Shown in pieces: positions 10,980 to 49,105 of a stretch of DNA of 64,000 nt; within the stretch, counting starts at the first letter, position 1; every line of letters starts with the position of its first letter. Source of the DNA: Lachnospiraceae bacterium. Lineage in GTDB: Bacteria > Bacillota > Clostridia > Lachnospirales > Lachnospiraceae. The stretch spans positions 31,233 through 95,232 of the forward strand of contig JAGAFR010000051.1 of assembly GCA_017612555.1 (NCBI GenBank), written 5' to 3'. The notes beneath the pieces were generated by a model. That model saw only the letters and a list, made by a program, of their open reading frames with translations, was not told where the DNA came from and did no database searches. The position numbers and the translations under genes were made by a program.

Positions 10980-11013
10980 GTTGTCCTCCAAGTTGGTGTG
11001 ATCACATGACCTG

Positions 11014-19457: not shown

Positions 19458-19464
19458 ACAAAAG

Positions 19465-19600: not shown

Positions 19601-19608
19601 AGAAAAAA

Positions 19609-30523: not shown

Positions 30524-31168
30524 TTAAGCACTATACGGTGCCTTCTTATCTATGCTTTCAAGATTGAGTACGTACTCCCGATCCCCCATCTTCTTATACC
30601 CGGTCTTTTCAAGAAAAGCCGTATGGTTGACCGGATCCTGACAGAATACGAGTGTTTTGTAGCCTTCTTCGGCAAGCCTCTTATACAGGAACCGTCCTGC
30701 CGATGTATCGCGATACGCCGGCGTTGCGTAATCAAGAACAGTCTCGATCCTGCCGGGCTGCGTTTCTTTTCCGAGGAACAGGCAGGCGGGGTCCGATCCG
30801 CAGCTGACGATATATGCTATATCCGCACTGACCCCTTCAAGTGAAACGTCGGGAAAGATGTGCCGTATATCCTCACCGCATTCAGACAGCATGTATGTAA
30901 AAAATCCGTCATTTTGACTGCTCTTTATCAGGTGGTAACTCTTCTTTTCATTGAACAGCTTCGTAAGCTGATATATGTTGATACCGGCAAGCGCTATGTT
31001 CATGATCGCCGTGGGATACGACCTGATCATAAGGGCATAACCCGCGAATATGACGCTTCCGATCAGATTGATCACGCGAAGCCTTACGACCGATGTCATG
31101 AGCATCGACACGAGAACAAGTGCCGAACCTGCATATCCTATCAGTTCTATTATCACCGCTTTATCCAT
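30524..31168 (-). CDS. Fusion of a 3-TM YgjV-like membrane module with a GNAT-like C-terminal domain
   Basis: 214 aa. Three N-terminal TM helices (IIELIGYAGSALVLVSMLM, LRVINLIGSVIFAGYALMI, PTAIMNIALAGINIYQL). A soluble C-terminus (YRDTSAGRFLYKRLAEEGYKTLVF) is reminiscent of the acetyltransferase fold. Confidence 0.5.
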   Translation of the reverse strand: MDKAVIIELIGYAGSALVLVSMLMTSVVRLRVINLIGSVIFAGYALMIRSYPTAIMNIALAGINIYQLTKLFNEKKSYHLIKSSQNDGFFTYMLSECGEDIRHIFPDVSLEGVSADIAYIVSCGSDPACLFLGKETQPGRIETVLDYATPAYRDTSAGRFLYKRLAEEGYKTLVFCQDPVNHTAFLEKTGYKKMGDREYVLNLESIDKKAPYSA

Positions 31169-33117
31169 TAAGCTGTTTCAACCTTCTCTTTCGGCAGATA
31201 CCTCATCAGCATCTTTTCAAGTGCATATCCTTCAACGGGCTTTGCCATGTAATCGGTAAACCCTTCCGCAAGATATCTTTCCCTTGCACCTACCACGGCA
31301 TCCGCAGTCAGGCATACGACCGGCGAGTCACTGCTCGCTCCGCCTTGTGTGGCACGTATCCTGTGAAATGCTTCGGTACCGTCCATCTCGGGCATCCGCT
31401 GATCCATCAGGATCAGATCGTACATCGTCTTTTCAGCCATCTGTATGGCATCGGCTCCGCTGGTGGCCTTGTCGAAAATGACCTGTGTATGCTTAAGAAG
31501 GTGCATCACGACCATGATATTGACCATCGTGTCATCGACAATAAGCACCCGCGCCGTAGGTGCCCGGAACAGACCGCCGGATATATCCTGCTTCGTCTCT
31601 TCGGCCGTATCGGATGAACTCTGTATTTCCGGTGCACTCTCCTTCTCGGGCTCAAGCTCGGCGATTGCGGTATCTTCCACCACTTTCTGTGATATCGTGA
31701 CCGTAAATATTGATCCGCGTCCGTATTCACTCTCTACGGAAACCGTTCCGTCCATCATATCAAGAAGGCGCTTTGTGATAACAAGACCCAGTCCAGTACC
31801 CTGAAGCGTACTGTTTCTTTCCATTTCCAGCCGTTCAAACTTTCCGAAGAGCCTGTCCCTGTCCTCGGCTTTTATACCGATACCCGTATCACTCACCACA
31901 AAAGACAAAAGAACCGTCCCCGTATCCTGCCTCCGGCCGGTGACCTTGAGGCTGACGCAGCCTTTCTCCGTATATTTGACGGCGTTATTGAGCAGATTGG
32001 TAAGCACCTGACGAACTCGGACGGCATCACCGCAAAGCTTGTCGGGAAGCGACCTGTCTATGTCCTCGATATACTCAAGATCCTTATCCTTTGCTTTGAT
32101 GCGTATCATGTTTCCGATCTCGCCAAGAAGGTTCCCGAGACTGTACGGAGCCTCCGACAGATCGATGCGTCCGGCTTCTATCTTGGAAAAATCAAGTATA
32201 TCATTAACAAGCGCCAGGAGATTATGTCCGGCGTTCTGAACGTCACCTGCGTATCCGAGAATGTTGTTCATCGATTCCTTCGCGGTCTTTGCATCGATGT
32301 TCTCAAGACCTTTTGATGCGCGGCTCTCACGCATTATCATCTCGTTCATTCCCAGCATCGCGTTGATGGGCGTCCTGATCTCATGAGACATATTTGCAAG
32401 AAAATCACTCTTTGCGATATTCGCACTCTCGGCCCTGACTTTCTCCTCAAACAGTTCCGTCTGCATCTTCATGAACGGCCTTACGGTTGAAAGTGACAGC
32501 GCCGCCGCTACAAGCAGCGATATAAGAAGAATGATAAGGTAACTTACAACCGTCGAACGCATCTGCGATGTCAGCTGACCGTCAAACCAGTCCGCGGAAA
32601 AATCCACCGCTATTATTCCGGCTACATTTCCTTTGGAATCAAATACGGGACTGTAGGCACTGTAGAACTCACCCCATTTATCCGTATAAGGCTCCTCGTC
32701 CACAGCCGATATTCCGTCTCCCGCCCGTGCAAGAGCTTCCGTATACTCTACACTGTCCCCGTATGCGGCCGGTGTTTCCTGATCCAGATCCATCGTGAAC
32801 ACGAACTGTCCGTCGGCCTCTTCCCTGATGCTGTATATGTACTCCAGCTCGACATTATCGCGAAAGACCGCGAGCCTTCTGTACAGATCGTTGTAGACAT
32901 CACTTCCGACATCATCCTTTGTAAGCGCCCCAAGCGCATCTCCGTCCAAGGAACCCGAAGCGCAGTTCGCTATATCCAGCATTCTCTGCTGGATGGCTTT
33001 ACGTATGCCTATCCTTGCCCTGTACACGGATATTGAACAGAACAGCATACTGGTGATCAGCAATATTGCCTCCACCATCAATATGACCTTGGAAGAAAGA
33101 TGGGTATTGTTTTTCAT
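31168..33117 (-). CDS. Membrane hybrid sensor histidine kinase: Cache-like extracellular domain, HisKA, HATPase, receiver
   Basis: 649 aa. TM1 VILMVEAILLITSMLF. Cache-like sensor (YIYSIREEADGQFVFTMDLD, WGEFYSAYSPVFDSKGNVAGIIAVDF). TM2, H-box SDFLANMSHEIRTPINAM, DTGIGI, GTGLGL. REC: VLIVDDTMVNI...DLILMDQRMPEMDG. The start overlaps the stop of the upstream peptidase gene (ATGA). Confidence 0.85.
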   Translation of the reverse strand: MKNNTHLSSKVILMVEAILLITSMLFCSISVYRARIGIRKAIQQRMLDIANCASGSLDGDALGALTKDDVGSDVYNDLYRRLAVFRDNVELEYIYSIREEADGQFVFTMDLDQETPAAYGDSVEYTEALARAGDGISAVDEEPYTDKWGEFYSAYSPVFDSKGNVAGIIAVDFSADWFDGQLTSQMRSTVVSYLIILLISLLVAAALSLSTVRPFMKMQTELFEEKVRAESANIAKSDFLANMSHEIRTPINAMLGMNEMIMRESRASKGLENIDAKTAKESMNNILGYAGDVQNAGHNLLALVNDILDFSKIEAGRIDLSEAPYSLGNLLGEIGNMIRIKAKDKDLEYIEDIDRSLPDKLCGDAVRVRQVLTNLLNNAVKYTEKGCVSLKVTGRRQDTGTVLLSFVVSDTGIGIKAEDRDRLFGKFERLEMERNSTLQGTGLGLVITKRLLDMMDGTVSVESEYGRGSIFTVTISQKVVEDTAIAELEPEKESAPEIQSSSDTAEETKQDISGGLFRAPTARVLIVDDTMVNIMVVMHLLKHTQVIFDKATSGADAIQMAEKTMYDLILMDQRMPEMDGTEAFHRIRATQGGASSDSPVVCLTADAVVGARERYLAEGFTDYMAKPVEGYALEKMLMRYLPKEKVETA

Positions 33118-35993
33118 TTTACGTAAAGTTCACACGTAGCTGTATTATATCCGCTGTTTTCCTCGGAAGGCGTTGCCACGATCTCATAATGTCCCGGACT
33201 TGCCTCAGAGCTTACCGACACAACTCCGTTCGCGTTTATCGTTACACCCGGAACTTGGGGATCTATTTTCCAGGTTACATTCGGCTGATCCTGTTTTTTC
33301 TTGGGAACCGCGATAGATACAGCAGCGGTCTTTGCTTTTGCGCCCGGCTTCGGGATTGCCACCGTTACCGATGTCTGCTTCAGCAGCAAATACTCCTCCG
33401 GTGTATCGGCTGCCACATCGATCGAAGATGATACTTTGCCGGACTTTACGGTTATGGTTCCCTTTGCTCCGGGCTCCGTTGCAATGACATACCCGAACTT
33501 TGTTACTTTGATACCTTTTCCCTTAACACTGAAGGCAAGATCCTTTGGATCGGTATTCCCCACTGTGTCGGTGACCTTCAGCAGTTCGCCCTTACCGACG
33601 GCAAGTTTATCAGCTCTGTGCAGTTGGAGCTCCGCAATGGGCTTTTTGATGATCAACTTTGTGTAGGCCTTTGTTTCATTACCATCTGCATCTGCCAGCG
33701 ACCACTCGAGATATGTTGCTCCGGCGTCTTTCGGTATGATCTCAAATGTAGCTTTGGAACCGTTACTGCTGCATGACAGCTTGCGAAAACCGCATAATTC
33801 GGCTTTTTCTGCGATACAAGAGACTTTTCCGGCCCTGTCCCGCAGATTCGAAGGGATACTTACAACAGCCTTGCCGTTTGTTCCCACGTTAAGCGTAAGT
33901 GTTTTGGGTGCGGTTATCTGGCTTTTCTTCCCGCCTTCCGTTATCGGTACATTCTCGCGCACCGTCCCGTCAACAGTGATCTTATAGCTGAGAGTTGTCC
34001 CTTTGGATACCACCTTTACATCCGCATGTCCGGTTTTGCCTTTCGGGATATTTCCGGCGGTTACCACACCGTTTTTAACGCTCACGCAGTTTTTGGGTGA
34101 AGCGTTCTCAACGATCCACTTAAGTCCGTATAAGTACCGTCCCTCAATAACACTCAGTCTTCTGACTTCGCCCGGAATGAGTGTCAGCTCATTATTATCT
34201 GTAACGGTCACATGACATGCAGCCGTATATCCTCCGTCATTTGTTGTTACGGTGATGTCAGCCTCGCCTGCCTTGACAGGTACGATCACATCCATCCCTG
34301 ACATCTGCGTAACATATGCAACCGACTCATCCGAAGATGACCATGTCACCGTCTTATCACCGGCATATGAAGGCTTTACCGTATATAGTATCTGGGTATA
34401 CTGATTCACCTTTACACTCATATTGGGCAGAACAGATACTCCGGTAACCGGGGAGCACCAGTTGGTAAACGCCTTTATTCGGAAATCACCATATATACTT
34501 TCCCCCATTACCTCGTTGGCGGTTTTCCACGAATCACCGTCAAAGCAAAGACTACGTCTGCCCTCGGTATGCGCGGTTGTATCATATGACATACTCTTTA
34601 CTGTCTTTTCAGCCCCCATAGATATATCCTCGGGAACCGAGACCACAACCGAAAATGACTCACCGGGTTCCAATTTCACGGGTTCCGTCAGTTCTATCGT
34701 ATGTCCTCCCGAATAGTCCGTTTTGCCCTGTTGGGTAGTCATCGCACGGATTCCGCTCTCCGGCTCTCCCGGGGATACTCCGGTATAAACATCTATCTTG
34801 TAATCAACGTTTGCATCGAAGGTCATAAAGTAAACAGCAGTCAGCATTTGTGGAGCGTCAGATGATGTTGTGAAAATATTTGCAAACTTCTGCTGACCGG
34901 ATATGAGTCCCGATTGTATACTTCCGTCATACTGATAGTTGTGAACATATTTATCGGCGCTTTCCATATCAAACGCATAGCAGCGCAGCAGCGACTTATC
35001 ATAATAGGATATCCAGAAATAAGAATTCCGCTCAGGTTCATCGCCTATAAGCTGTCCATTCGACGCAACGTAATTACCGGCCTCCCAGCTGTTCCTTATC
35101 AGCCATGCCCCGTCACCTTCCGGCTTTTCGCTGTATGCAAACTTATCCCTTGAAAAATCATCATCCCATCCAACGATCGAAATAAGATGATTAAGGCCAC
35201 GCGCTTCGGGCAAATAGTAACAGTTGTTCTCCTTGCTGTATATATCTTTAAATTCAGGCTCCGATTCCGACACGTTAAAGTATCCACTTGCGACCGCCCC
35301 GTAGTCCTTGATAAGCTTCTTTACTCCCTCACGGTCATCATCGACTTCAGCATAATAAAAGCCCTTCAGGTGCATGACATCGTCTATGGCATTTTCACGT
35401 GCGGTCGAAAACTTTCGCAGACTTTCGTCATTGGCATACGGATAATCTTTCTCATCAGCCGTACCGATCCAGCTTGCAAGAAGCTGAGCCGCAGTCTCGG
35501 GATTGCCGCCGCTTCCAAGATAGTCATCATCCGGTACTGCGTTAATGTCTCCTTCAAATCCTCCGATCGGATTATACGGTTCGTTATACTTTCCGTAAAA
35601 ATACGCAAGATGAAGTTCCGACAGATCGATCTTGTTATTTGCCGTACTGCCGTCACGGAGCTTTACTCCGTGCTTTACAGCAGACATCTCTGCAGCAGCC
35701 ATGGTAGCAAAAGCCCAGCATGTTCCATACGGGTCCTGACACCTTGAAGGTATCTTCGATGCTTCCGGAGAGATATAGAAACGTTCTGCGACTTCGAACA
35801 GCTCATCCGCAGACCGTCCCTTATTTACGCTTTCATACTTATCCTCGGTCGGAGATGGTGCGTATCCGGGTACGAACACAAATATAGGCTCCTCTTCCGG
35901 GGTCTCGTCGGCATATACCGGCACCCGAATAACAGATACGGTGAGTACCGCAACAAGTAAGGATGCTACTATTCGATGTAATTTCATTTTCAT
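33114..35993 (-). CDS. Secreted papain-like (C1) cysteine peptidase with Ig-like (Big_2-type) C-terminal domains, paralog 1
   Basis: 959 aa. Signal peptide MKMKLHRIVASLLVAVLTVSVIRVPVYA. Cys motif QDPYGTCWAF, His motif LNHLISIVGWDDDF, Asn motif WLIRNSWEAGNY. Big_2-like segment TWSSSDESVAYV...GEADITVTTNDGGYTAACHVTV. Confidence 0.8.
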   Translation of the reverse strand: MKMKLHRIVASLLVAVLTVSVIRVPVYADETPEEEPIFVFVPGYAPSPTEDKYESVNKGRSADELFEVAERFYISPEASKIPSRCQDPYGTCWAFATMAAAEMSAVKHGVKLRDGSTANNKIDLSELHLAYFYGKYNEPYNPIGGFEGDINAVPDDDYLGSGGNPETAAQLLASWIGTADEKDYPYANDESLRKFSTARENAIDDVMHLKGFYYAEVDDDREGVKKLIKDYGAVASGYFNVSESEPEFKDIYSKENNCYYLPEARGLNHLISIVGWDDDFSRDKFAYSEKPEGDGAWLIRNSWEAGNYVASNGQLIGDEPERNSYFWISYYDKSLLRCYAFDMESADKYVHNYQYDGSIQSGLISGQQKFANIFTTSSDAPQMLTAVYFMTFDANVDYKIDVYTGVSPGEPESGIRAMTTQQGKTDYSGGHTIELTEPVKLEPGESFSVVVSVPEDISMGAEKTVKSMSYDTTAHTEGRRSLCFDGDSWKTANEVMGESIYGDFRIKAFTNWCSPVTGVSVLPNMSVKVNQYTQILYTVKPSYAGDKTVTWSSSDESVAYVTQMSGMDVIVPVKAGEADITVTTNDGGYTAACHVTVTDNNELTLIPGEVRRLSVIEGRYLYGLKWIVENASPKNCVSVKNGVVTAGNIPKGKTGHADVKVVSKGTTLSYKITVDGTVRENVPITEGGKKSQITAPKTLTLNVGTNGKAVVSIPSNLRDRAGKVSCIAEKAELCGFRKLSCSSNGSKATFEIIPKDAGATYLEWSLADADGNETKAYTKLIIKKPIAELQLHRADKLAVGKGELLKVTDTVGNTDPKDLAFSVKGKGIKVTKFGYVIATEPGAKGTITVKSGKVSSSIDVAADTPEEYLLLKQTSVTVAIPKPGAKAKTAAVSIAVPKKKQDQPNVTWKIDPQVPGVTINANGVVSVSSEASPGHYEIVATPSEENSGYNTATCELYVK

Positions 35994-36035
35994 GAAAGCT
36001 TCCTTTCCGGTGAAGATACAAATCAGTTAAATTTT

Positions 36036-36064
36036 ATTATATCACACATACCGTTTGCCATGTG
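36036..36064 (-). promoter_or_regulatory. Possible internal promoter (extended -10) ahead of peptidase paralog 1
   Basis: This is the only long (80 nt) gap in the array. The minus strand has TGATATAAT (36044..36036, TGn + TATAAT) with a poor -35 (CACATG). A 6-bp hairpin GCCGTT...AACGGT lies just upstream. Confidence 0.35.
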
Positions 36065-36073
36065 AACGGCTGT

Positions 36074-39016
36074 CTATTTTACGATAAGCTCGCACGTGGC
36101 TGTGTTATATCCGCTCTTTGTATCGGAAGGTGTTGCCGCTACCTCATACAGTCCCGGCTTTGCCTCAGAGCTTACCGACACGATCCCGTTCTCATTAACC
36201 GTTACGCCAAGATCGGCGGGACTTACGCTCCAGTTTACCTTCGGCTGCTCTTTCTTCGGGGAAGCGATCGTGATCTTGGAAGTCTTTGCCCCGGACTTGG
36301 GAGCCTTCACCGTTACCGATGTCTGCTTCAGAGCCAGGTACTTCTCCGGTGTTGAAGCTGTCACTTCGATCGATGATGATACTTTTCCCGACTTGACGGT
36401 AACAGTTCCTTTTGCTCCCGGCTCCGTTGCAACAACGTATCCGCTCTTTGATACTTTGATCCCTTTTCCCTTAACGGAAAAGACCGGATCCTTCGGATCG
36501 GTATTATCTGCGGCACAGGTAACCTTCAACCATTTACCCCGGCCAACGTCAAGTGTATTCTCTTTTGAAAGCTTAAGTTCCGTGACCGGCTTTTTGACGA
36601 TCACTTTCGTGTAGGTGCAGGTCTCGTTTCCCTTGTCGTCTTTGAGCCCCCACTTTATATATGTTGTACCGACATTGATCGGTGTGATCTCCATCGCAGC
36701 CTTGGAACCGTTGCCGCTGACCGGCATCTTATGTAAGTTTACGATCGCCTGGGCATCTGCGGCGTAACCGGTTACCTTCGATGAGTAAGCGCGCATGTTT
36801 GCAGGTATGCTTACTACAGCCTTGCCCTTCGTTCCCACATTAAGAGTGAGTGCTTTTGTTGCAGTGATCTGTGCTGTCTTTCCGTCTACGGTGATCGGGA
36901 CATTTTCAAACGCCGCCGGCTCAACGGTGATGTTGAACGTATGCGTATCCGCTCCGCATACGGCTTTGACAAGAGCTTTTCCGTATGCTGTTCCCTTCGG
37001 AAGATCCTTTGCGGTCACAACGCCGTTAGTCACGCTCACGCAGTTCTTCGGAGATGCGGTAACGCTCCACTGTGCCCCGAATATGTACCTTCCGTCTGAG
37101 CTTATGTTGAGTCTTCTGACTTCACCCGGATAGAGTCTTAAGTCATTATCATCCGTAACGGTCACATGACACGTGGCCGTATAGCCTCCGTCTTTTGTTG
37201 TTACGGTGATATCAGCCTCACCTTTTGCGACACCTACAAGAGCCGGTGTCTTACCGCTGTAAGTCACATAAGCAACCGATTCATCCGATGAGGACCATGT
37301 TAAGGACTTATCGCCGGCATATGAAGGTTCTACCACAGGTGCGAGTCCCAACGGTTTTCCCACCTTGACCTTCGCTTGAGACACAAGCGATATACCTGTG
37401 ACCGGAGCACGCCAGTTGGTAAATGCCTTTATTCGAAAATCACCGTTTGTTTCCCGACCCGATGCCTCACTGGCTGTTTTCCATGTGTCACCTTCAAGGC
37501 AGAGGCTCCGTCTTCCCTCTGTATGAGCAGTTGTCACATAATATCCTTCATCAGACTGCTCAACCATCATTTTGGTACTCTTGGGAACCGTAAGCACCAC
37601 CGAAAAGTTCTCACCCGGTTCCAGTTCCACGGGTTCGTTAAGTTCTATCGTGTATCCTCCCGAATAATTGATTTTCCCCTGCAGAGTTTCCATCGCGCGT
37701 GTTCCGCTCTCAGGCTGCCCTTCCTGCACATCCTTATACACATCTATCTTATAATCAACGTCTGCGGAATAAGTATCAATATATACAGCCGTCAGCAGCT
37801 GAGGTTCGTCAGTTGCCCTGAATATATTTGCGTACTTCTCATGATCAGACACCTGATCTGATGTCATACAACCGTCATACTGATAGTTATGTACATATTT
37901 ATCGGGACTTTCCATATCAAGTGCATAACACTGATCATCCAGTGATTCGTCATAATACGAGAGCCAGAAGTATGAATTGATCTGAGGAAAATTGCCTATA
38001 AGCTGTCCATCCGATGCAATATAGTTACCCGCCTGCCAGCTGTTTCTTATAAGCCACGCCCCGTCACCTTCCGGCTTTTTGCTGCTCGCAAACTTTTCCT
38101 TCGGAAAATCATCATCCCATCCCACAATGGCAACAAGATGATTGATATCTTTATGTTCCGGCACATAATAGCAATTGTTATCCACACTGCAATATTCATA
38201 GAATTCGGGAGAACCGGTGTCAGCATTGTAATACAATGCTGCAACGGCTCCGTACTCACGGATGAGATTCTTTACTCCCAAACGGTCATTACGGGGATTG
38301 GCTACATAATATCCTTTCATGTGCATCACATCATCTACGGCGTTCTCCTTTGCAGTCTCAAAATCTTCGAGGCTTGAGTCATTGGCATACGGATAACTCT
38401 TTTCATCCGCCGTTCCGATCCAGCTTCCCAAAATATGTACTGCATTGACAGCATTGCCGCCATGAAGAAAGTTATCATTTTCCCTGCCGTTCATGTCCCC
38501 TTCAAATCCACCGATGGGGTTGTAAGGCTCGTTCCTCTTTCCCGCAAAATAAGAAAGGTGAATTTCCGACAGATCTATATCATTTACGGCCGGACTACCG
38601 TCGCGAAGTATTACACCGTGCTTAACCGCAGACATTTCTGCAGCAGCGATGGTCGCGAAGGCCCAGCATGTTCCATGGGGGTTCTGCCCCCTCGAAGGGA
38701 TCATCGCCGTTTCCGGAGAGATATAAAACCGTTCTTCATTCTCAAGCAGTTCATCCGATGACTGAGTGCTCCTCACTGTCTCGTATTCATGTTCATTCGG
38801 AACCGGCAAGTATCCCGGTACGAATTTATTGACCACTGCTTCTTCATAAGCATCCTCCTCTGTTTCTGTTTCCGCCTCTGTCTCTGTCTCTGCTTCGGCT
38901 TCCGTGACTATGATCTCTTCCCGGGTCTCGTCTGCATATACCGGCACCCGGATTATTGATACGGTAAGAACGAGTGCAAGTACGGATGCAAAAATACGAT
39001 GTAATGCTCTTTTCAT
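36074..39016 (-). CDS. Secreted papain-like (C1) cysteine peptidase with Ig-like domains, paralog 2
   Basis: 980 aa. Signal peptide MKRALHRIFASVLALVLTVSIIRVPVYA. An ETEAETE acidic repeat. GQNPHGTCWAF, INHLVAIVGWDDDF, WLIRNSWQAGNY. Big_2-like TWSSSDESVAYV. Confidence 0.8.
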   Translation of the reverse strand: MKRALHRIFASVLALVLTVSIIRVPVYADETREEIIVTEAEAETETEAETETEEDAYEEAVVNKFVPGYLPVPNEHEYETVRSTQSSDELLENEERFYISPETAMIPSRGQNPHGTCWAFATIAAAEMSAVKHGVILRDGSPAVNDIDLSEIHLSYFAGKRNEPYNPIGGFEGDMNGRENDNFLHGGNAVNAVHILGSWIGTADEKSYPYANDSSLEDFETAKENAVDDVMHMKGYYVANPRNDRLGVKNLIREYGAVAALYYNADTGSPEFYEYCSVDNNCYYVPEHKDINHLVAIVGWDDDFPKEKFASSKKPEGDGAWLIRNSWQAGNYIASDGQLIGNFPQINSYFWLSYYDESLDDQCYALDMESPDKYVHNYQYDGCMTSDQVSDHEKYANIFRATDEPQLLTAVYIDTYSADVDYKIDVYKDVQEGQPESGTRAMETLQGKINYSGGYTIELNEPVELEPGENFSVVLTVPKSTKMMVEQSDEGYYVTTAHTEGRRSLCLEGDTWKTASEASGRETNGDFRIKAFTNWRAPVTGISLVSQAKVKVGKPLGLAPVVEPSYAGDKSLTWSSSDESVAYVTYSGKTPALVGVAKGEADITVTTKDGGYTATCHVTVTDDNDLRLYPGEVRRLNISSDGRYIFGAQWSVTASPKNCVSVTNGVVTAKDLPKGTAYGKALVKAVCGADTHTFNITVEPAAFENVPITVDGKTAQITATKALTLNVGTKGKAVVSIPANMRAYSSKVTGYAADAQAIVNLHKMPVSGNGSKAAMEITPINVGTTYIKWGLKDDKGNETCTYTKVIVKKPVTELKLSKENTLDVGRGKWLKVTCAADNTDPKDPVFSVKGKGIKVSKSGYVVATEPGAKGTVTVKSGKVSSSIEVTASTPEKYLALKQTSVTVKAPKSGAKTSKITIASPKKEQPKVNWSVSPADLGVTVNENGIVSVSSEAKPGLYEVAATPSDTKSGYNTATCELIVK

Positions 39017-39036
39017 GAACGCTTCCTTTCCTGAAT

Positions 39037-42027
39037 CTATTTAACGATAAGCTCGCATGTAGCTGTGTTATATCCGCTTCCTTCTTCGGATGGTGTTGCC
39101 ACCACCTCATACAGTCCCGGCTTTGCAAGATCACTTACCGACACTATCCCGTTCTCATTGATCGTTACACCAAGATCAGCGGGAGTAATACTCCATTTTA
39201 CCTTCGGCTGATCCTTCTTCGGAGAAGCGATGGTGATCTTTGCGGTCTTGGCACCGGACTTGGGGGCCGCTACCGTTACCGATGTCTGCCCCAGCACCAG
39301 ATACCTCTTGGGTGTTGCGGCTTCCACATCGATGGAGGACGATGCTTTGCCGGACTTGACTGTAACGGTTCCTTTTGCTCCGGGAGTCGTTGCAACAACG
39401 TATCCGCTCTTTGATACTTTGATACCTTTTCCCTTAACCGAAAATACCGGATCCTTCGTTTCCGTGTTGTTCCTGGTTCCGGTGACCTGAAGACGCGTAC
39501 CCACACCTACGGCAAGCTCGGTATTTCCCGTAAGGTTAAGCTCTGTGACCGGCTTTTTGACGATCACCTTCGTATAGGCCTTAGTCACGTTGCCTTTTTC
39601 ATCCGCAAGTAACCACTCGATATAAGTTGCTCCGGCTTCCCGCGGTACTAACTCAAATGTGATCTTGGAATTATTACTGCTGTTTGACATCCGGTGTACT
39701 CCGCACACTCCGATGTCATCCCGGTTCCAATCGATCTGATCTGCCCTGTTTCGCAGATTCGCAGGGATACTTACGGCAGCCTTACCGTTTGTACCCATAT
39801 TCAGAGTGATCGTTTTGGGTGCAGTGATCTGTGTTTTCTTTCCGCCTTCGGTTATGGGAACATTTTCATGAGCCGATGCGTCAACCGTGATGTTGAATGT
39901 ATGGGTTTCAGATCCGCATACTGCCTCAACAAGTGCTTTTCCGTATGTTGTTCCTTTCGGAAGATTCTTGGCGGTTACAACACCGTTTGTCACGCTCACG
40001 CAGTTCTTCGGAGATGCGGTAACACTCCACTGTGCCCCGTAAATACACCTTCCGTCCCCGCTTAAGTTAAGTCTTTTGCTCTCACCGGGATAAAGGATCA
40101 GATTGTTATCATCTGTGACGATAACATGACAGGTGGCCGTAAATCCGCCGTCATTTGTTGTTACTGTGATATCGGCCTCTCCTTTTGCAACAGCATTGAC
40201 CGCTGCAGCTTTTCCGTAATACTCCACATACGCAACAGAATCATCCGAAGATGACCATGTAACCGACTTATCAGCCGCGTGCGCAGGTTTTATTTCAGGT
40301 TCGATCTCTGCCAATTCTCCTGCCTTGATGTTCATTCTGGGCGCAAGAGATACACCGGTAACATGAGCGCTCCAGTTTGTAAGCGCCTTGATACGTATAT
40401 CGCCATATTGGTCTGAATTCATATACTCAGCGGCTGTTTTCCACGTATCTTCGTCCAGGCAGATACTGCGCCTGTCCTCGGTATGTGCTGTCGTTACGTA
40501 AGAATCATTCGAAGACTTCTCCGCATTCATGCCGGTACCTTTCGGAACCGTGATCACGACCGAGAATCGCTCACCCGCCTCCAATTCCACGGGATTGGTA
40601 AGTTCTATCGTATATCCTCCGGCATAGGTCAGTTTACCCTCCTGAGTGGGCATCGCACGCGTTCCGCTCTTGGGCTGTCCTTCCGACACTCCCTTATACA
40701 CATCTATCTTATACGGAACATTTGCGCTGCCTGTAGCGAAATAAACAGCAGTCAGCTTCTGCGGTTCGTCAGTTGCCGTGAATATATTTGCGAATTTCTC
40801 CGGTCCGGTTACATACTCCGTTGTCATACATCCGTCATATTGATAGTTATGCTCATATTTATCAACGCGTTCCATATCGAAGGCATAACACTCATCAGCC
40901 GATGTCTTGTCATAGTATGAGAGCCAGAAATATGAGTACAGTTCAGGATGATTGCCGGCGAGTTTTCCATCGGTTGTTACATAGTTACCTGCTTCCCAGC
41001 TGTTTCTTACAAGCCATGCTCCGTCACCTTCCGGCTTTTCGCTGTAAGCGAAGTTTTCCTTCGGAAAATCATCATCCCATCCGACTATTGAAACAAAATG
41101 ATTGATACCTTGTTTTACCGGCACATAATAACAATTGTTCTCACTGCTGTATACATCATTAAGTGTAAGTCCCTGATCATTGTTATTCTGGAATGACCAG
41201 TATATCATCGAGGCCGAACCGTATTTTTGAATAAGAGCCTTTACCGCGGAAGGGGCTGTATGGAGACCGGCTATATAGTACCCCCTCTGGTGTATTACAT
41301 CATCAACTGCATTCTCCCGTGCAGTCTCATACTTGCGAAGGCTGGGATCATTAACATACGGATAACTCTTCTCATCTGCCGCACCGATCCAGCTTGCCAG
41401 AATGCTCACGGCGTTATCGGGACTGCCGCCGGCAAGAAAGTCACTATTCACTACGCTGTTTGTGTCCCCTTCAAATCCACCGAGGGGATTGTATGGTTCG
41501 TTCTTCTTACCGCAGAAATACGCAAGATGCAGCTCCGACAGATCTATCTTATTATTAGCTTCACTGCCGTCTCTAAGCGTTACTTTATTCCTTAACGCAG
41601 ACATTTCAACAGCTGCCATGGTCCCGAAGGCCCAGCATGCGCCGAACTGTCCCTGATCTCTTGAAGGGATCCTGGAAGCCTCCGGAGAGATATAGAATCG
41701 CACATCCTCATCAAACAGTTCTTCAGCTGCCTGTTCTTCACTTACGCTTTCAAACATTCCCTCATTGGGAGCCGGAAGGTATCCCGGTACAAATCGTGAA
41801 ACCTTCTCCGCCATCTTTTCGGGATCTTCCTTTTTCCCGGGGGCATCAGGCTCTTCCGGGACTTCCGCTTTATCCGTAACTGCCTCTTCTTCAAGTGTCT
41901 CCGTCTCTGCCTCGGTGACAACGATCTCTTCTTCGGGCTCCACGGCATATACCGGCACACGGATCATGGATGCGGCAAGAACAAGTGCAAGTACAGATGA
42001 AATGATACGATGTAATGTCTTTTTCAT
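39037..42027 (-). CDS. Secreted papain-like (C1) cysteine peptidase with Ig-like domains, paralog 3
   Basis: 996 aa. Signal peptide MKKTLHRIISSVLALVLAASMIRVPVYA. DQGQFGACWAF, INHFVSIVGWDDDF, WLVRNSWEAGNY. 20-nt intergenic gap with an AGGAAAGGAAGCG RBS. Confidence 0.8.
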   Translation of the reverse strand: MKKTLHRIISSVLALVLAASMIRVPVYAVEPEEEIVVTEAETETLEEEAVTDKAEVPEEPDAPGKKEDPEKMAEKVSRFVPGYLPAPNEGMFESVSEEQAAEELFDEDVRFYISPEASRIPSRDQGQFGACWAFGTMAAVEMSALRNKVTLRDGSEANNKIDLSELHLAYFCGKKNEPYNPLGGFEGDTNSVVNSDFLAGGSPDNAVSILASWIGAADEKSYPYVNDPSLRKYETARENAVDDVIHQRGYYIAGLHTAPSAVKALIQKYGSASMIYWSFQNNNDQGLTLNDVYSSENNCYYVPVKQGINHFVSIVGWDDDFPKENFAYSEKPEGDGAWLVRNSWEAGNYVTTDGKLAGNHPELYSYFWLSYYDKTSADECYAFDMERVDKYEHNYQYDGCMTTEYVTGPEKFANIFTATDEPQKLTAVYFATGSANVPYKIDVYKGVSEGQPKSGTRAMPTQEGKLTYAGGYTIELTNPVELEAGERFSVVITVPKGTGMNAEKSSNDSYVTTAHTEDRRSICLDEDTWKTAAEYMNSDQYGDIRIKALTNWSAHVTGVSLAPRMNIKAGELAEIEPEIKPAHAADKSVTWSSSDDSVAYVEYYGKAAAVNAVAKGEADITVTTNDGGFTATCHVIVTDDNNLILYPGESKRLNLSGDGRCIYGAQWSVTASPKNCVSVTNGVVTAKNLPKGTTYGKALVEAVCGSETHTFNITVDASAHENVPITEGGKKTQITAPKTITLNMGTNGKAAVSIPANLRNRADQIDWNRDDIGVCGVHRMSNSSNNSKITFELVPREAGATYIEWLLADEKGNVTKAYTKVIVKKPVTELNLTGNTELAVGVGTRLQVTGTRNNTETKDPVFSVKGKGIKVSKSGYVVATTPGAKGTVTVKSGKASSSIDVEAATPKRYLVLGQTSVTVAAPKSGAKTAKITIASPKKDQPKVKWSITPADLGVTINENGIVSVSDLAKPGLYEVVATPSEEGSGYNTATCELIVK

Positions 42028-42047
42028 AAACGCTTCCTTTCTTGAAT

Positions 42048-44936
42048 CTATTTAACGATAAGCTCGCATGTAGCTGCGTTATATCCGCTGTCAGGATCCG
42101 AAGGCGTTGCCACTACCTGATAGATTCCGGGCGACGCCGCATCGGTTACCGACACAACTCCGCTTTTTTCATCTATCCCTACACCCGGAACGTTCCAGTC
42201 AAGACTCCAGATGACCTCCGGCTGATCCTGTCTTTTCTTGGGAACAGCGATGGAAATTGCGGTAGTCTTTGCTTTTGCGCCGGGCTTCGGAGCCGTAACC
42301 GTCACCGAAGTCTGCTTCAATGTCATATACTTCTCGGGTGAATCAGCTGCAACATCGATCGTTTTGGATGCTTTCCCGGCCTTGACCGTTATCGTCCCCT
42401 TCGCTCCCGGCTCCGTTGCAATGACATGACCCGTCTTTGACACCTTGATACCTTTTCCTTTGACACCAAATGTCAGATTGTTTGAATCAGTGTTATCTTT
42501 GTCGGCAACAACTCCTATCCACGTACCTTGACCGACAGTAAGTGCGGTATCACATGAAACTTCGAAGTTATCACCGTCTATGGGTTTTTTGACGATCACT
42601 TTCGTGTACGCCTTGGTCTCATTACCCTTTGCATCTTTCATAGACCACTCTATGTATGTCGCTCCGGCATTGACCGGTGTGATAGCAAATGCGGCCTTGG
42701 AACCGGCCTTATTATATGTCGGACCACTCACCGAGCAGATTCCTTCAGTATAAATCCCGTAATCAACACCTGCCGTCTTACTCCTCAGGTTTACGGGAAT
42801 ACCAAGATCAGCCTTGCCGTCTTTACCTACAGTAAGATTTATCGTCTTCGGTGCGGTAAGCTGTATCTTCTTGCCTCCGTCAATGATCGGAACGTTTCCA
42901 TGCGCAGTGCCGTCCACTTTGATATTAAACCTGTATACATTCGATGAGTTTGTGGCAGTTACAACAGCCTCTCCGGTTGTTTTCCCTTTCGGAAGATTCT
43001 TTGCCGTTACTATACCGTTCGATACGCTCACACAGTTCTTCGGTTCAGCGGATTCAACATTCCACTTAAGTCCGAACGCATACAGTTCATACTCGGCAAG
43101 GTACAATCTTCTGACCTCACCGGGAATAAGTACGAGATCGCTGTCATCGGTAACTGTCACACGACATACATCCGTAAATCCTCCGTCAACCGTTGTTACG
43201 GTTATATCAGTCGTACCCTTCCCGACAGCGGTAACCGTTCCGTTTACATCCACCGATGCAACAGTATCATTCGAAGATGACCATGTTACCGACTTATCGG
43301 TTGCATACGAAGGCTCTACTGTGGGCGTAAGAGTAAACGTACCACCGGCCTTTACGCTCTTGCTCTTCGGAAGGGATACACCCTTAACCGCTACGGGGCC
43401 GGCAGATCCGTTTTTGGTAAATGCCTTGATACGAAAATCACCCCAGGCACTATCTTTTAATCTCTGACTTGCCGTCATCCACTTATCACCGAACCAACAC
43501 AAGCTTCGGCTTCCTTCGGTATGAGCAACGGTCTCATAATAACCGCTTGAAGATTCCTCAGCATCCATGTACGTCTCCTGCGGGACTGTAATAACGACGG
43601 AAAAGCTCTCTCCCGGCTCAAGATCCACCGGCCGTTCGAGTTCTATCGTATATCCTCCCGCATATGACGTTTTCCCGCTCTGCCCTGACAGCGCGCAGGT
43701 TCCGCTCTCGGGATCCCCTTCGGACACACCCGTATAAACATCTATCTTATAGTCAACATTTGCACTGTGGGTTGAGAAGAAAACAGCTGACAGCTGCTGC
43801 ACAGAATCATCCGAGGCCGTGAAGATGTTCGCATATTTCTTTTGACCCCAGAGATAACCTCCGGTCATACATCCGTCATACTGATAATTGTGGTCATATG
43901 TGTTGACGCGGTCCATGTCAACCGCATAAGCACCCGTCCATAATGACTGGTCATAATATGACAGCCAGAAATAGGAATTGTATGCGGCATGTTCACCTGT
44001 TAATTCACCCTTTTCGTTAACGTAATTACCGGCCTCCCAGCTGTTCCTGACAAGCCACGCTCCGTCGCCTTCCGGCTGAGCTCCGTTTGTGAAGTTTTCC
44101 CTTGAAAAATTATCGTTCCATCCGACAAGGGCGATCACATGATTGGTCCCGGGATTGTAGGAAAGATAATAACAGTTATTATCTCTGCAGTATATTCCAT
44201 CTTCATCATAATATACCGCAACGACAGCTCCGTAATCTTTGATGAGCTTCTTGACCGCATCCGGGTCATTTTTCGGGTTGGCAAAATAGAAACCCCGTAA
44301 ATGCATCACATCGTCAATGCCGTTTTCACGATCTGTCTCATAAGAGTAGAGGCTTTTATCAATGGCATACTTATAATCATTCTCGTCTGCCGTGCCGATC
44401 CAGTTTGCAAGAAGCTGCGTTGCGGTACCGGCACTTCCCCCGTTATCAAGGAAGTTCTTTTTTGTACCGTTACGGTCTCCGGCAAATCCCCCGAGAGGAT
44501 CGTAGGGCTCGATCTTCTTTCCCGCAAAGTAGGCCAGGTGAAGTTCCGACAGATCGGTGCCTTCGTTTGCATACGATCCGTCTCGAAGCTGTGTACCGTA
44601 ATTGGCAGCCGACATCTCTGCCGCGGCCATTGTTGCAAACGACCAGCACGTTCCAAAACGCCCCTGCTCTCTCGAAGGTTTCCTGGTCGCTATCGGAGAT
44701 ACGAAGAAATCTTCCTCGGCTCCGAAAAACTGATCCGCGGACGGATCCATATTCACACTTTCATACTCATCCTCATGAGGAGCAGGTGCGAAGCCCGGCA
44801 CGAATCTGATGCCGTCTGATCTGTACTGGTAGCTTTCTTCTTCAATTTCCGTAGCATATACCGGCACCCGGATCATGGTAACGGCTATGACCGCTGCAAG
44901 TACAGATGAAATGATTCTGCGTAATGATTTTTTCAC
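42048..44936 (-). CDS. Secreted papain-like (C1) cysteine peptidase with Ig-like domains, paralog 4 (first gene of the array)
   Basis: 962 aa. GTG start with an AGGAAAGGG RBS. Signal peptide (M)KKSLRRIISSVLAAVIAVTMIRVPVYA. EQGRFGTCWSF, TNHVIALVGWNDNF, WLVRNSWEAGNY. Confidence 0.8.
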   Translation of the reverse strand: MKKSLRRIISSVLAAVIAVTMIRVPVYATEIEEESYQYRSDGIRFVPGFAPAPHEDEYESVNMDPSADQFFGAEEDFFVSPIATRKPSREQGRFGTCWSFATMAAAEMSAANYGTQLRDGSYANEGTDLSELHLAYFAGKKIEPYDPLGGFAGDRNGTKKNFLDNGGSAGTATQLLANWIGTADENDYKYAIDKSLYSYETDRENGIDDVMHLRGFYFANPKNDPDAVKKLIKDYGAVVAVYYDEDGIYCRDNNCYYLSYNPGTNHVIALVGWNDNFSRENFTNGAQPEGDGAWLVRNSWEAGNYVNEKGELTGEHAAYNSYFWLSYYDQSLWTGAYAVDMDRVNTYDHNYQYDGCMTGGYLWGQKKYANIFTASDDSVQQLSAVFFSTHSANVDYKIDVYTGVSEGDPESGTCALSGQSGKTSYAGGYTIELERPVDLEPGESFSVVITVPQETYMDAEESSSGYYETVAHTEGSRSLCWFGDKWMTASQRLKDSAWGDFRIKAFTKNGSAGPVAVKGVSLPKSKSVKAGGTFTLTPTVEPSYATDKSVTWSSSNDTVASVDVNGTVTAVGKGTTDITVTTVDGGFTDVCRVTVTDDSDLVLIPGEVRRLYLAEYELYAFGLKWNVESAEPKNCVSVSNGIVTAKNLPKGKTTGEAVVTATNSSNVYRFNIKVDGTAHGNVPIIDGGKKIQLTAPKTINLTVGKDGKADLGIPVNLRSKTAGVDYGIYTEGICSVSGPTYNKAGSKAAFAITPVNAGATYIEWSMKDAKGNETKAYTKVIVKKPIDGDNFEVSCDTALTVGQGTWIGVVADKDNTDSNNLTFGVKGKGIKVSKTGHVIATEPGAKGTITVKAGKASKTIDVAADSPEKYMTLKQTSVTVTAPKPGAKAKTTAISIAVPKKRQDQPEVIWSLDWNVPGVGIDEKSGVVSVTDAASPGIYQVVATPSDPDSGYNAATCELIVK

Positions 44937-45017
44937 TGGTTAACCCTTTCCTGTTTTAACTGTTGATGATTCCATTTCATTTTCACCCATCGGGCAAAGT
45001 CTAATACCCTAAGTTAC

Positions 45018-45046
45018 ATTATACTTTCCGGAAATGGATTTGCCCA
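45018..45046 (-). promoter_or_regulatory. Possible promoter of the peptidase/kinase operon
   Basis: Minus strand TGGGCA (45046..45041), 17 nt spacer, TATAAT (45023..45018), about 80 nt upstream of the GTG start at 44936. Confidence 0.4.
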
Positions 45047-45076
45047 CATTTTTTTAGATCATATTTGACTATTGTA

Positions 45077-48734: not shown

Positions 48735-49105
48735 TCAGCTGCTTCTGAATAAAGCCCGCATCACCGTTCTTCCACCGTGATCCCACAGGATCAGCATATA
48801 CCTGTCTGCCGGATAGTTTTCCGTGCTCCATGAAACGAAGTTCTCCAGCGTCTTCTCGTCTCCCATCGATGCGAGCGGTTCTGTTTTGTCAAGCTTGTAT
48901 GTATTGCCCTCAAGGTGGTAGAATCCGAGACTGTTCGTATCGATCGGTGGGATATCGGCATTGTCGGAGAATTCCTCGGTATGCCATTTTTCGCACCCGC
49001 CGGTCTGCACCACAACATTAACAACAATACCGCAACTACTATCGCTATAACGAGGAGGACTATCTTCGCTGTTTTTTTATTATTGTTGGTGCTATTCGTG
49101 TTCAA
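48735..49105 (-). pseudogene. Remnant of a clostripain-like (C11) peptidase gene: frameshifted N-terminus, truncated after the catalytic His region
   Basis: Frame A (from TTG 49105) gives a membrane anchor: MNTNSTNNNKKTAKIVLLVIAIVVAVLLLMLW. Frame B (49013..48735) gives ...TLENFVSWSTENYPADRYMLILWDHGG, which resembles the C11 His motif. It then diverges and stops, so no Cys-containing half is present. Confidence 0.45.

What the first reader, a model, noticed from the sequence alone, without database searches (positions are those of the whole stretch)
33114..44936. Four tandem, tightly coupled paralogs of a secreted papain-like peptidase fused to Ig-like domains
- Four consecutive genes of 959-996 aa share one architecture. 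Each has a near-identical Sec signal peptide (…RVPVYA), a short linker, and a C1-type catalytic domain.
- In all four copies the Cys (G[TA]CW[AS]F), His (NH…[IL]VGW[DN]DxF) and Asn (W[LI][IV]RNSW) motifs are intact.
- A beta-rich middle region follows, then several Big_2-like Ig domains, ending in GYNTATCEL[IY]VK.
- Units 4/3 and 3/2 are separated by only 20 nt carrying the same RBS. The last unit overlaps the start of a hybrid histidine kinase (ATGA).
- I see no LPXTG, S-layer, choline-binding or other obvious anchoring motif.
- A four-fold in-operon expansion of intact extracellular cysteine proteases wired to a sensor kinase is not a textbook arrangement. The substrates (host or dietary proteins, competitor surfaces, own wall proteins) are unknown.
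- This is my best candidate in the window for an uncharacterised functional system.
Basis: partly seen in the sequence, partly recalled or inferred. Interest (0 to 1): 0.7.

Follow-up and report, generated by a model that had tools for sequence, protein, structure and literature searches.

The report
Tandem Cwp84-like secreted cysteine proteases
An uncultured Lachnospiraceae gut bacterium carries four side-by-side, diverged but intact copies of a secreted cysteine protease. The protease is of the type known from Clostridioides difficile Cwp84, and the array is a local expansion of a very large, common but largely unstudied protein family, not a new kind of system.

Summary
Four same-strand ORFs (959, 980, 996 and 962 aa) share 53-64% identity. 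Each has a signal peptide, Peptidase_C1, the Cwp84 "Lectin_like" domain (PF18560), one Big_2 and four further Ig-like domains. The Gln/Cys/His/Asn catalytic residues are intact, and the junctions are as described.

The closest solved structure is C. difficile Cwp84 (sequence E about 1e-23; Foldseek TM 0.75-0.79). However, the CWB2 wall anchor is missing and no other anchor was found.

The protease plus lectin-like module is very common: 1,568 clusters at 50% identity at E<=1e-30, nearly all in Lachnospiraceae. Tandem arrays of 2-3 intact paralogs occur in at least 8 of 80 distant loci. Close relatives carry 1 copy, or 3 plus 2, at the same rluB-to-kinase locus. The array is therefore a lineage-specific birth-and-death expansion under purifying selection (dN/dS 0.16-0.29).

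The ATGA overlap with the hybrid kinase is a generic feature of this genome. Even so, hybrid kinases recur just downstream of family members elsewhere, which is suggestive but unexplained.

Most likely function: a co-transcribed battery of secreted pro-enzymes with diverged S2 pockets for extracellular protein breakdown. Verdict: new member of a known kind, modest interest.

The parts
45018..45046 (-). Promoter-like site (TGGGCA-17-TATAAT) about 80 nt upstream of the C4 start. It is the likely promoter of the array.
   Evidence: This is a consensus scan only; the sequence was read. The surrounding 67 nt (44992-45058) are 79% identical to the region upstream of a related protease cluster in L084.
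42048..44936 (-). C4, the first gene of the array (962 aa, GTG start). It is the most divergent paralog (53-57% identity to the others).
   Evidence: ORF and translation; Pfam Peptidase_C1, Lectin_like and Big_2. It is identical to NCBI MBO4266821.1. The ribosome-binding site GGAAAGGG lies 7 nt before the GTG.
39037..42027 (-). C3 (996 aa), with a long acidic linker after the signal peptide.
   Evidence: It is identical to NCBI MBO4266820.1. The best PDB match is Cwp84 4d59/4ci7, E about 2e-23.
36074..39016 (-). C2 (980 aa), the copy that was modelled. Domains (residues, then window coordinates): signal peptide 1-28 (38933-39016); linker and pro-segment 29-95 (38732-38932); C1A protease 96-372 (37901-38731); lectin-like 373-536 (37409-37900); Big_2 537-621 (37154-37408); four Ig-like domains 622-980 (36077-37153). 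Catalytic residues are Q111, C117, H293 and N325.
   Evidence: AlphaFold2 mean pLDDT 86.9. Foldseek hits Cwp84 with TM 0.75-0.79. The tail model has pLDDT 91. The catalytic residues are invariant across 60 homologs.
35994..36073 (-). The 80-nt C2/C1 spacer. It contains a short hairpin (CCGTT...AACGG), a TGaTATAAT extended -10-like element and the shared ribosome-binding site. It may be an internal promoter for C1 and the kinase.
   Evidence: The sequence was read directly. The hairpin was listed, but without a T-run on the sense strand. This is inference only.
33114..35993 (-). C1, the last gene of the array (959 aa). Its stop overlaps the kinase start (ATGA).
   Evidence: The NCBI model (957 aa) starts two codons later. 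Ribosome-binding-site spacing in the paralogs favours the ATG at 35993.
31168..33117 (-). Hybrid histidine kinase (649 aa). Layout: transmembrane segment 7-32, an extracytoplasmic domain of about 150 aa (weak sCache_3_2 match), transmembrane segment 185-216, then HisKA, HATPase_c and REC domains.
   Evidence: Pfam; hydropathy. The sCache_3_2 match has E 1e-3, below threshold. Orthologs sit downstream of the protease gene(s) in L003 (79% identity) and L001 (72%).
30524..31168 (-). YgjV-like membrane protein with a soluble C-terminal half (214 aa). It is a syntenic neighbour, and its link to the proteases is unproven.
   Evidence: Pfam Imp-YgjV. The same gene follows the kinase in L003.

Best explanation
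**What it is**
The region is a lineage-specific tandem expansion of a secreted Cwp84-type cysteine endopeptidase. The host is an uncultured Lachnospiraceae bacterium, probably from the ruminant gut.

**How it most likely works**
1. Each gene encodes a Sec-exported pro-enzyme. The signal peptide is cut after VPVYA.
2. A variable acidic linker and a short conserved pro-segment (FVPGYxPxPxE) follow. By analogy with Cwp84, the pro-segment probably lies in the active-site groove until it is removed.
3. Next comes a papain-fold catalytic domain with the Gln/Cys/His/Asn machinery, packed against a lectin-like beta-sandwich that forms one wall of the substrate groove.
4. A stalk of five Ig-like domains ends the protein. 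With no wall anchor, the enzymes are released or only loosely held at the surface.
5. The four genes are probably transcribed together from a promoter upstream of C4, and translated from identical ribosome-binding sites.
6. The copies are old duplicates kept under purifying selection. They differ at the two segments that line the S2 specificity pocket in Cwp84, so they most likely act as a battery of endopeptidases with different cleavage preferences.

**Most likely role**
Extracellular breakdown of dietary or host proteins to supply peptides and amino acids.

**Shown versus inferred**
- Shown: gene structure, domain content, catalytic residues, fold, family size, copy-number variation and selective constraint.
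- Inferred: secretion, zymogen activation, co-transcription, differing specificity and the nutritional role.
For: **Family and fold**
- Pfam finds Peptidase_C1, Lectin_like and Big_2 in all four copies.
- The best sequence and structure match is Cwp84.
- Q111, C117, H293 and N325 are invariant across 60 homologs.
- The models are confident, with pLDDT 87 and 91.
- The tail gives only generic multi-Ig stalk matches. It shows no carbohydrate-binding or wall-binding fold.

**Export without an anchor**
- There is a single N-terminal hydrophobic segment, no LPXTG motif and no anchor domain.

**Constraint and age of the duplicates**
- dN/dS is 0.16-0.29 for every paralog and ortholog pair tested.
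- The direct repeats are only 62-86% identical, with no long identical tracts between paralogs.

**Diverged specificity**
- The segments that align to the Cwp84 S2-pocket residues Ser235 and Thr317/Asp318/Asp320 (PMC4089489) differ between the copies. They read SG/AL/MI/AV and LR/DQ/DE/TG.

**Expansion at a fixed locus**
- The same rluB-to-kinase locus holds 1 copy in L003 and 3 copies in L001, and that genome has 2 more members elsewhere.
- The NJ tree shows duplications both before and after the split of these genomes.
- The family is large and often tandem.

**Operon signals**
- The ribosome-binding sites are shared, the spacers are 20 nt, and a promoter-like site lies upstream of C4.
- No sense-strand terminator-like site falls in any of the spacers.
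Against: - No expression, secretion or activity data exist for these genes.
- The only characterised relative, Cwp84, is wall-anchored and processes a specific S-layer precursor rather than feeding the cell.
- The S2-pocket mapping rests on an alignment at 26% identity, and I could not inspect the model coordinates.
- The 80-nt C2/C1 spacer carries a possible internal promoter, so transcription as a single unit is not assured.
- The Ig stalk might bind the cell surface in a way the tools cannot detect.
- The habitat is inferred from the record titles of related loci.
Confidence: 0.6

Rival explanations
1. These are surface-protein maturation proteases, as Cwp84 is. The enzymes would stay at the cell surface through their Ig-like stalk and process one or several of the bacterium's own surface or S-layer precursors. 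In this view, each paralog matches a different substrate protein.
For: - The closest characterised homolog is Cwp84, which cleaves SlpA (PMC4089489).
- Other family members do carry SLH or choline-binding wall anchors.
- The tail model also matches S-layer assembly domains such as Sap and SbsB, among many other Ig arrays.
Against: - There is no CWB2, SLH or other anchor in any of the four copies.
- No S-layer-type gene was found among the ORFs scanned in the window.
- The S-layer matches are generic multi-Ig hits with TM below 0.3.
- Copy number varies from 1 to 5 between close relatives. That fits poorly with an essential one-to-one processing role.
Confidence: 0.15
2. These are host- or competitor-directed colonisation factors. 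They would be glycoprotein-targeting proteases, with the lectin-like domain binding glycans, that cut mucins, immunoglobulins, matrix proteins or rival cell surfaces. They would diversify through an arms race.
For: - Cwp84 has been reported to degrade fibronectin, laminin and vitronectin (PMC4089489).
- Gene content at the locus turns over by birth and death.
- C4 and a gene in a co-resident species share a mosaic tract that is 100% identical, while housekeeping neighbours are only 72-77% identical.
Against: - dN/dS is uniformly low (0.16-0.29), and no domain stands out as fast-evolving.
- No glycan binding has been shown, even for the Cwp84 lectin-like domain.
- The identical tract could be cross-talk within one metagenome assembly.
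Confidence: 0.12
3. This is a protease-plus-sensor circuit. The array and the downstream Cache-type hybrid kinase would form one functional unit. Peptides or amino acids released by the proteases would be sensed by the kinase, which would then tune expression.
For: - C1 and the kinase overlap by 4 nt, and the adjacency is kept in L003.
- In 80 distant loci (739 gene-sized ORFs), all 4 hybrid-kinase-like ORFs lie within two genes downstream of a family protease. They fall in 3 loci.
Against: - The sensor domains of those kinases all differ: multi-pass membrane, FIST plus Hpt, PAS, and Cache-like here.
- The kinase cores are no closer to the window kinase than the window's own other hybrid kinases are.
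- In L001 an opposite-strand MatE gene separates the array from the kinase.
- Four-base overlaps are generic in this genome.
- No cognate response regulator or Hpt gene lies in the locus.
Confidence: 0.1
4. These are non-catalytic adhesins, or decaying duplicates of one functional gene.
For: The long Ig-like stalks resemble adhesin extenders.
Against: - All catalytic and oxyanion residues are intact in every copy.
- The reading frames are uninterrupted.
- Purifying selection is seen in all comparisons.
Confidence: 0.03

Closest known systems
Cwp84 of Clostridioides difficile (MEROPS family C1A; PDB 4ci7, 4d59)
   Same: - It has the same order of parts: signal peptide, pro-segment, cathepsin-L-like C1A domain, then the lectin-like domain PF18560.
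- The Gln/Cys/His residues align.
- Sequence match E is about 2e-23, and Foldseek gives TM 0.75-0.79 at 26% identity.
   Different: - Cwp84 ends in three CWB2 wall-binding repeats and is a single gene in the S-layer (cwp) cluster. It has one known substrate, SlpA.
- The proteins here end in five Ig-like domains with no anchor, and come as four tandem paralogs.
- No S-layer gene was found among the ORFs scanned in the window.
- They also keep the canonical papain-type Asn (RNSW), where Cwp84 has KSSW.
Uncharacterised multidomain 'lectin like domain-containing' or 'Ig-like domain-containing' C1 peptidases of Lachnospiraceae (Butyrivibrio, Roseburia, Agathobacter and rumen metagenome-assembled genomes)
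   Same: - They share the same protease plus lectin-like core at 28-50% identity, often with Big_2 domains.
- They are often found in tandem arrays of 2-3 intact paralogs.
   Different: - The accessory domains differ: InlB B-repeats, SLH, LRR, fn3 or choline-binding.
- The specific four-Ig tail seen here is confined to a handful of sequences, and it also occurs on non-protease exoproteins.
- Four copies is the largest array I saw.
Papain and cathepsin L (classical C1A peptidases)
   Same: They share the catalytic machinery and fold: Q-x5-CW, NH...GW and NSW.
   Different: [quoted passage not shown] The review in PMC10380794 states that prokaryotic genomes usually carry one C1A gene and occasionally up to three.

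Membership tests
Papain family C1A (Pfam PF00112) | A significant match to the Peptidase_C1 profile, above the curated cut-off | tested here: met
   Scores are 33-47 bits against a cut-off of 20.7 in all four copies.
Papain family C1A (Pfam PF00112) | Catalytic Cys and His, the oxyanion-hole Gln and the orienting Asn, all at the aligned positions | tested here: met
   In C2 these are Q111, C117, H293 and N325. They are invariant in the four copies and in 60 homologs. Cys aligns to the C116A position and His to H262 of Cwp84.
Papain family C1A (Pfam PF00112) | E-64-sensitive endopeptidase activity | not testable with these tools
   This needs recombinant enzyme.
Cwp84-type protease module (C1A plus lectin-like domain, PF18560) | A lectin-like beta-sandwich immediately after the protease and packed against it | tested here: met
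   PF18560 scores E 1e-19 to 3e-22 over the full profile length. One Foldseek alignment spans both domains of 4ci7/4d59 with TM 0.75-0.79.
Cwp84-type protease module (C1A plus lectin-like domain, PF18560) | A non-globular N-terminal propeptide that occupies the active-site groove | tested here: inconclusive
   A conserved segment of about 30 aa (FVPGYxPxPxE) precedes the protease. Residues 71-80 have pLDDT 89. More columns align to the pro-form 4ci7 (486) than to the processed 4d59 (447). I could not inspect the coordinates.
C. difficile cell-wall protein (Cwp) family / S-layer maturation protease | Three CWB2 (PF04122) wall-binding repeats | tested here: not met
   There is no CWB2, SLH or choline-binding hit in any copy. 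The C-terminal 360 aa fold as four Ig-like domains.
C. difficile cell-wall protein (Cwp) family / S-layer maturation protease | Genomic or functional link to an S-layer precursor substrate | tested here: inconclusive
   No S-layer-type gene was found among the ORFs scanned in the 64-kb window. The rest of the genome was not available.
Sortase-anchored surface protein | A C-terminal LPXTG motif, then a hydrophobic segment and a positively charged tail | tested here: not met
   The regex and hydropathy scans were negative. The proteins end ...CEL[IY]VK, which is the last strand of an Ig-like domain.
Single operon (co-transcribed, translationally coupled array) | Same strand, short spacers, no internal terminator, one upstream promoter, and a continuous transcript | tested here: inconclusive
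   The same strand, the 20/20/80-nt spacers and the shared ribosome-binding sites are confirmed. A promoter-like site lies upstream of C4, and no sense-strand terminator falls in the spacers. An extended -10-like element in the 80-nt spacer leaves room for an internal start. No RNA data are available.
Two-component-regulated protease locus | Protease-kinase adjacency conserved beyond shared synteny, with a cognate regulator | tested here: inconclusive
   The adjacency is kept in L003 and interrupted in L001. Hybrid kinases lie downstream of family proteases in 3 of 80 distant loci, but their sensors differ. No response regulator or Hpt gene lies in the locus.

The most novel reading that the evidence does not exclude
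The recurrent placement of hybrid histidine kinases directly downstream of Cwp84-like protease genes might reflect a real and so far undescribed regulatory pairing in Lachnospiraceae. This placement is seen in the window clade and in three distant loci, each with a different sensor domain. In this reading, secreted protease batteries are co-expressed with, or feedback-controlled by, a dedicated phosphorelay. The array would diversify by duplication and by exchange of gene segments between co-resident species.
Probability: 0.1. Interest if true: 0.55.

Novelty: new member of a known kind. Interest (0 to 1): 0.3.

Why it matters
- Extracellular proteolysis by gut and rumen Firmicutes drives nitrogen turnover and, in ruminants, loss of feed protein. 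The enzymes responsible are poorly defined.
- This locus points to a very large, experimentally untouched family of secreted Cwp84-like cysteine proteases in Lachnospiraceae as candidate agents.
- It also offers a natural set of four diverged paralogs for asking how specificity evolves in that family.
- It shows that prokaryotic C1A genes can reach higher copy numbers than a recent survey reported (PMC10380794).
- It does not reveal a new mechanism.

Tried and rejected
- **NCBIfam:** no model matched any of the four proteases.
- **Rfam:** there is no known leader or riboswitch upstream of the array. The only weak hit (SNORD47, well below its gathering score) is spurious.
- **Remnant gene upstream of C4:** blastx of the 500-nt region against the proteases, the relative's GH10 and rluB found no decayed copy.
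- **Recent gene conversion between paralogs:** none was seen. Repeat families are 62-86% identical.
- **Plasmid or mobile origin:** only two distant plasmid hits turned up, in Methanosarcina and Monoglobus.
- **Pseudogene in relative L001:** the split middle copy is due to a scaffold gap of Ns, not a frameshift.
- **Special C-terminal sorting signal:** the conserved ...CELIVK end is the final strand of a Big_2-like domain. The same pattern (GGYTATCHVTVT) occurs in the internal Big_2 domain.
- **Specific tail function:** the tail-only model gave only generic multi-Ig matches.
- **Literature:** I found no paper characterising this family in Lachnospiraceae or the rumen.
- **ATGA overlap as evidence of functional coupling:** rejected, because such overlaps are common in this window.
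Full report

Yes. The minus strand carries four consecutive long ORFs:
- C4: 42048-44936, 962 aa, GTG start
- C3: 39037-42027, 996 aa
- C2: 36074-39016, 980 aa
- C1: 33114-35993, 959 aa

They align end to end with 53-64% pairwise identity and 73% mean column identity. A period of about 3 kb is visible in the DNA as direct repeats that are 62-86% identical.

The C4/C3 and C3/C2 spacers are 20 nt. The C2/C1 spacer is 80 nt. Every start codon is preceded by the same GGAAAGG-type ribosome-binding site. The C1 stop overlaps the start of a hybrid histidine kinase as ATGA.

IRVPVYA ends the signal peptide, and Q-x5-CW, NHxxx[IL]VGW and RNSW are all present. There are two small corrections:
- C4 ends GYNAATCELIVK.
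- The conserved C-terminus is just the last beta-strand of a Big_2-like domain. The internal Big_2 domain has the same pattern (GGYTATCHVTVT), and all tail homologs end [CF]E[LIV][IVM]VK.

The same four-gene array appears in independent assemblies from two samples. It is therefore not an assembly artefact.

**2. What the proteins are**

Pfam finds Peptidase_C1, the 'Lectin_like' domain PF18560 and one Big_2 in every copy, all above the curated cut-offs. PF18560 was defined on Cwp84 of Clostridioides difficile, and Cwp84 (4ci7, 4d59) is the best solved-structure match by sequence, at E about 2e-23. The catalytic Cys aligns to the C116A position and the His to H262.

An AlphaFold2 model of C2 (mean pLDDT 86.9) gives this layout:

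| Residues (C2) | Part |
|---|---|
| 1-28 | signal peptide |
| 29-64 | disordered acidic linker |
| about 65-95 | short pro-segment |
| about 96-372 | C1A protease domain |
| about 373-536 | lectin-like domain |
| 537-621 | Big_2 |
| 622-980 | four more beta-sandwich domains |

Foldseek puts Cwp84 first (E about 1e-25, TM 0.75-0.79 over both domains). A separate model of the last 360 residues (pLDDT 91, pTM 0.81) matches only generic chains of Ig-like domains. These include NUP210, Dscam, cadherins, RTX-adhesin extenders and S-layer assembly domains. No carbohydrate-binding or wall-binding fold appears.

No anchor was found. There is no CWB2, SLH, choline-binding or LPXTG feature, and no second hydrophobic segment. 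Q111, C117, H293 and N325 (C2 numbering) are invariant across 60 homologs.

**3. Where it comes from, and how common it is**

C1, C3 and C4 are identical to proteins of an NCBI 'MAG: Lachnospiraceae bacterium' on a 115-kb contig (MBO4266820.1 and MBO4266821.1).

The species is absent from the GTDB representative set, where the best hit is 49% identical. However, more than 549 relatives were found there. Almost all are Lachnospiraceae from rumen or gut, including Butyrivibrio, Roseburia faecis, [Lactobacillus] rogosae and Acetitomaculum.

An exhaustive HMMER scan with the protease plus lectin-like module found 1,568 clusters (50% identity) at E<=1e-30 and 6,090 at E<=1e-10. Protein lengths range from about 580 to 3,400 aa. 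Accessory domains vary widely and include InlB B-repeats, SLH, LRR, fn3, choline-binding and Big_2.

The Cwp84 structure paper had already noted that the protease plus lectin-like combination occurs in many Clostridiales (PMC4089489). I found no paper characterising any Lachnospiraceae member.

**4. Tandem arrays and copy-number dynamics**

In 80 distant loci, at least 8 carry 2-3 tandem family members. These are 36-82% identical to each other, and all but one copy keep the catalytic motifs. They include cultured Butyrivibrio sp. MC2021 (3 copies) and [Lactobacillus] rogosae (2 copies).

In the window's own clade the locus is syntenic but the copy number differs:
- L003 has rluB, then one protease, then the same hybrid kinase, then the YgjV-like gene.
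- L001 has rluB, a GH10 gene, three proteases, an opposite-strand MatE gene, then the kinase. The apparent split of the middle copy is a run of Ns.
- The same scaffold as L001 carries two further members 15 kb away.

A neighbour-joining tree pairs C3 with L001_b (100% bootstrap). It places C4 outside a fully supported (100%) clade that holds the other six array copies, near the single-copy L003 gene and P0007. Some duplications therefore predate and some postdate the split of these genomes.

dN/dS is 0.16-0.29 for all pairs. Divergence is spread evenly over the domains at 55-70% identity. The four-copy array is thus the upper end of a common birth-and-death pattern. It does exceed the 'one, occasionally up to three' stated for prokaryotic C1A genes in PMC10380794. 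The window also holds a fifth, distant family member at 6300-11087.

**5. The link to the kinase**

The kinase (31168-33117) has two transmembrane segments. They flank an extracytoplasmic domain of about 150 aa with a sub-threshold sCache_3_2 match, followed by HisKA, HATPase_c and REC domains.

The ATGA overlap is not informative by itself, for two reasons:
- Four-base overlaps occur at five other unrelated junctions in this window.
- The overlapping gene string runs on through a YgjV-like gene, a DNA-alkylation-repair gene, a FIST hybrid kinase and a YkuD transpeptidase.

One observation is not explained. Among 739 gene-sized ORFs in the 80 distant loci, the only four hybrid-kinase-like ORFs (E<1e-40) all sit within two genes downstream of a family protease. 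They fall in three loci: L016, L046 and L056. Their sensors differ (multi-pass membrane, FIST plus Hpt, PAS). Their cores are no closer to the window kinase than the window's other hybrid kinases are. I treat this as suggestive only.

**6. How it most likely works**

Steps that are shown:
- Four intact genes lie on one strand with shared ribosome-binding sites.
- A promoter-like TGGGCA-17-TATAAT lies at 45046-45018. The 67 nt around it are 79% identical to the region upstream of a related protease cluster.
- No sense-strand terminator-like site falls in the spacers.

Steps that are inferred:
- The proteins are exported through Sec and cleaved after VPVYA.
- The pro-enzyme is held inactive by the conserved FVPGYxPxPxE segment lying in the groove, as in Cwp84. 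Removal then leaves a released endopeptidase on an Ig stalk.
- The two segments that align to the Cwp84 S2-pocket residues (Ser235; Thr317/Asp318/Asp320) read SG/AL/MI/AV and LR/DQ/DE/TG in C1-C4. This suggests different P2 preferences.

I therefore favour a battery of secreted proteases that broadens the range of extracellular protein breakdown for nutrition. The rivals are surface-protein maturation as with Cwp84, host- or competitor-directed proteolysis, and a protease-sensor circuit. They are less well supported but are not excluded.

**7. An oddity**

C4 and its 84%-identical ortholog P0005 sit on a different scaffold of the same metagenome sample. They are 100% identical over about 1,050 nt inside the gene. 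The gene flanks fall to 53-95% identity, and the housekeeping neighbours are only 72-77% identical. This is either recent exchange between co-resident species or assembly cross-talk. The present data cannot tell which.

**8. Verdict**

The locus is a new, unusually large tandem set of a known protease type (the Cwp84-like C1A plus lectin-like module), carried on an anchorless Ig-like stalk. It is of modest interest as an entry point into an abundant, uncharacterised protease family of gut and rumen Lachnospiraceae. It is not a new kind of system.

Noticed in passing
window 6300-11087 (-); likely true start near 10979: This is a fifth Cwp84-like C1 peptidase (about 1,559 aa from M37). It has its own signal peptide, Peptidase_C1 (E 7.6e-19), a weak Lectin_like match and a Flg_new/InlB-type repeat. 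It is 26-33% identical to the array copies, and the Q-x5-CW and RNSW motifs are present.
   Followed up: partly
window C4 nt about 451-1500 (roughly 43437-44486) versus L084 5677-8574: The two sequences are 100% identical over about 1,050 nt with a gene on another scaffold of the same metagenome sample. The gene flanks are 53-95% identical, and the housekeeping neighbours only 72-77%. This is either recent inter-species recombination or assembly cross-talk.
   Followed up: partly
window 49130-49546 (-): A 138-aa gene with no Pfam match is 91% identical to the gene immediately downstream of the C4 ortholog in L084 (8573-9030). In the window it lies 4 kb upstream of C4, beyond rluB and a GGDEF gene, which points to a local rearrangement.
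   Followed up: no
window 44992-45058: The predicted promoter region of C4 is 79% identical to L084 158-224. That segment lies upstream of a 1,131-aa gene with no Pfam match, which heads a cluster made of the 1,131-aa gene, a 642-aa protease and the C4 ortholog.
   Followed up: partly
L016, L046 and L056 (distant Lachnospiraceae loci): Hybrid histidine kinases with unrelated sensor domains (multi-pass membrane, FIST plus Hpt, PAS) lie within two genes downstream of Cwp84-like protease genes. These were the only strong hybrid-kinase hits among 739 ORFs in 80 loci.
   Followed up: partly
window 27246-29798 (-) and 55044-59246 (-): The window holds two further hybrid histidine kinases, one FIST-type and one Reg_prop/Y_Y_Y-type with an Hpt domain. 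That makes three hybrid kinases in 64 kb.
   Followed up: no
window 19463-19605 (+): An FMN riboswitch (RF00050) scores 99.9 bits.
   Followed up: no
window about 48735-49013 (-): A 92-aa ORF was called as a Peptidase_C11 (clostripain) fragment in the equivalent scaffold L088. It is probably a gene remnant.
   Followed up: no
L086 and L087: The four-Ig tail of the array proteins also occurs on non-protease exoproteins. These sit next to Big_2-rich and transglutaminase-core proteins, so the tail looks like a shared, portable stalk module.
   Followed up: partly
window 20547-26541 (-): An aromatic amino-acid biosynthesis cluster lies directly downstream of the same minus-strand gene string. It includes DAHP synthase, prephenate dehydrogenase and a shikimate dehydrogenase / shikimate kinase / dehydroquinase fusion.
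   Followed up: no
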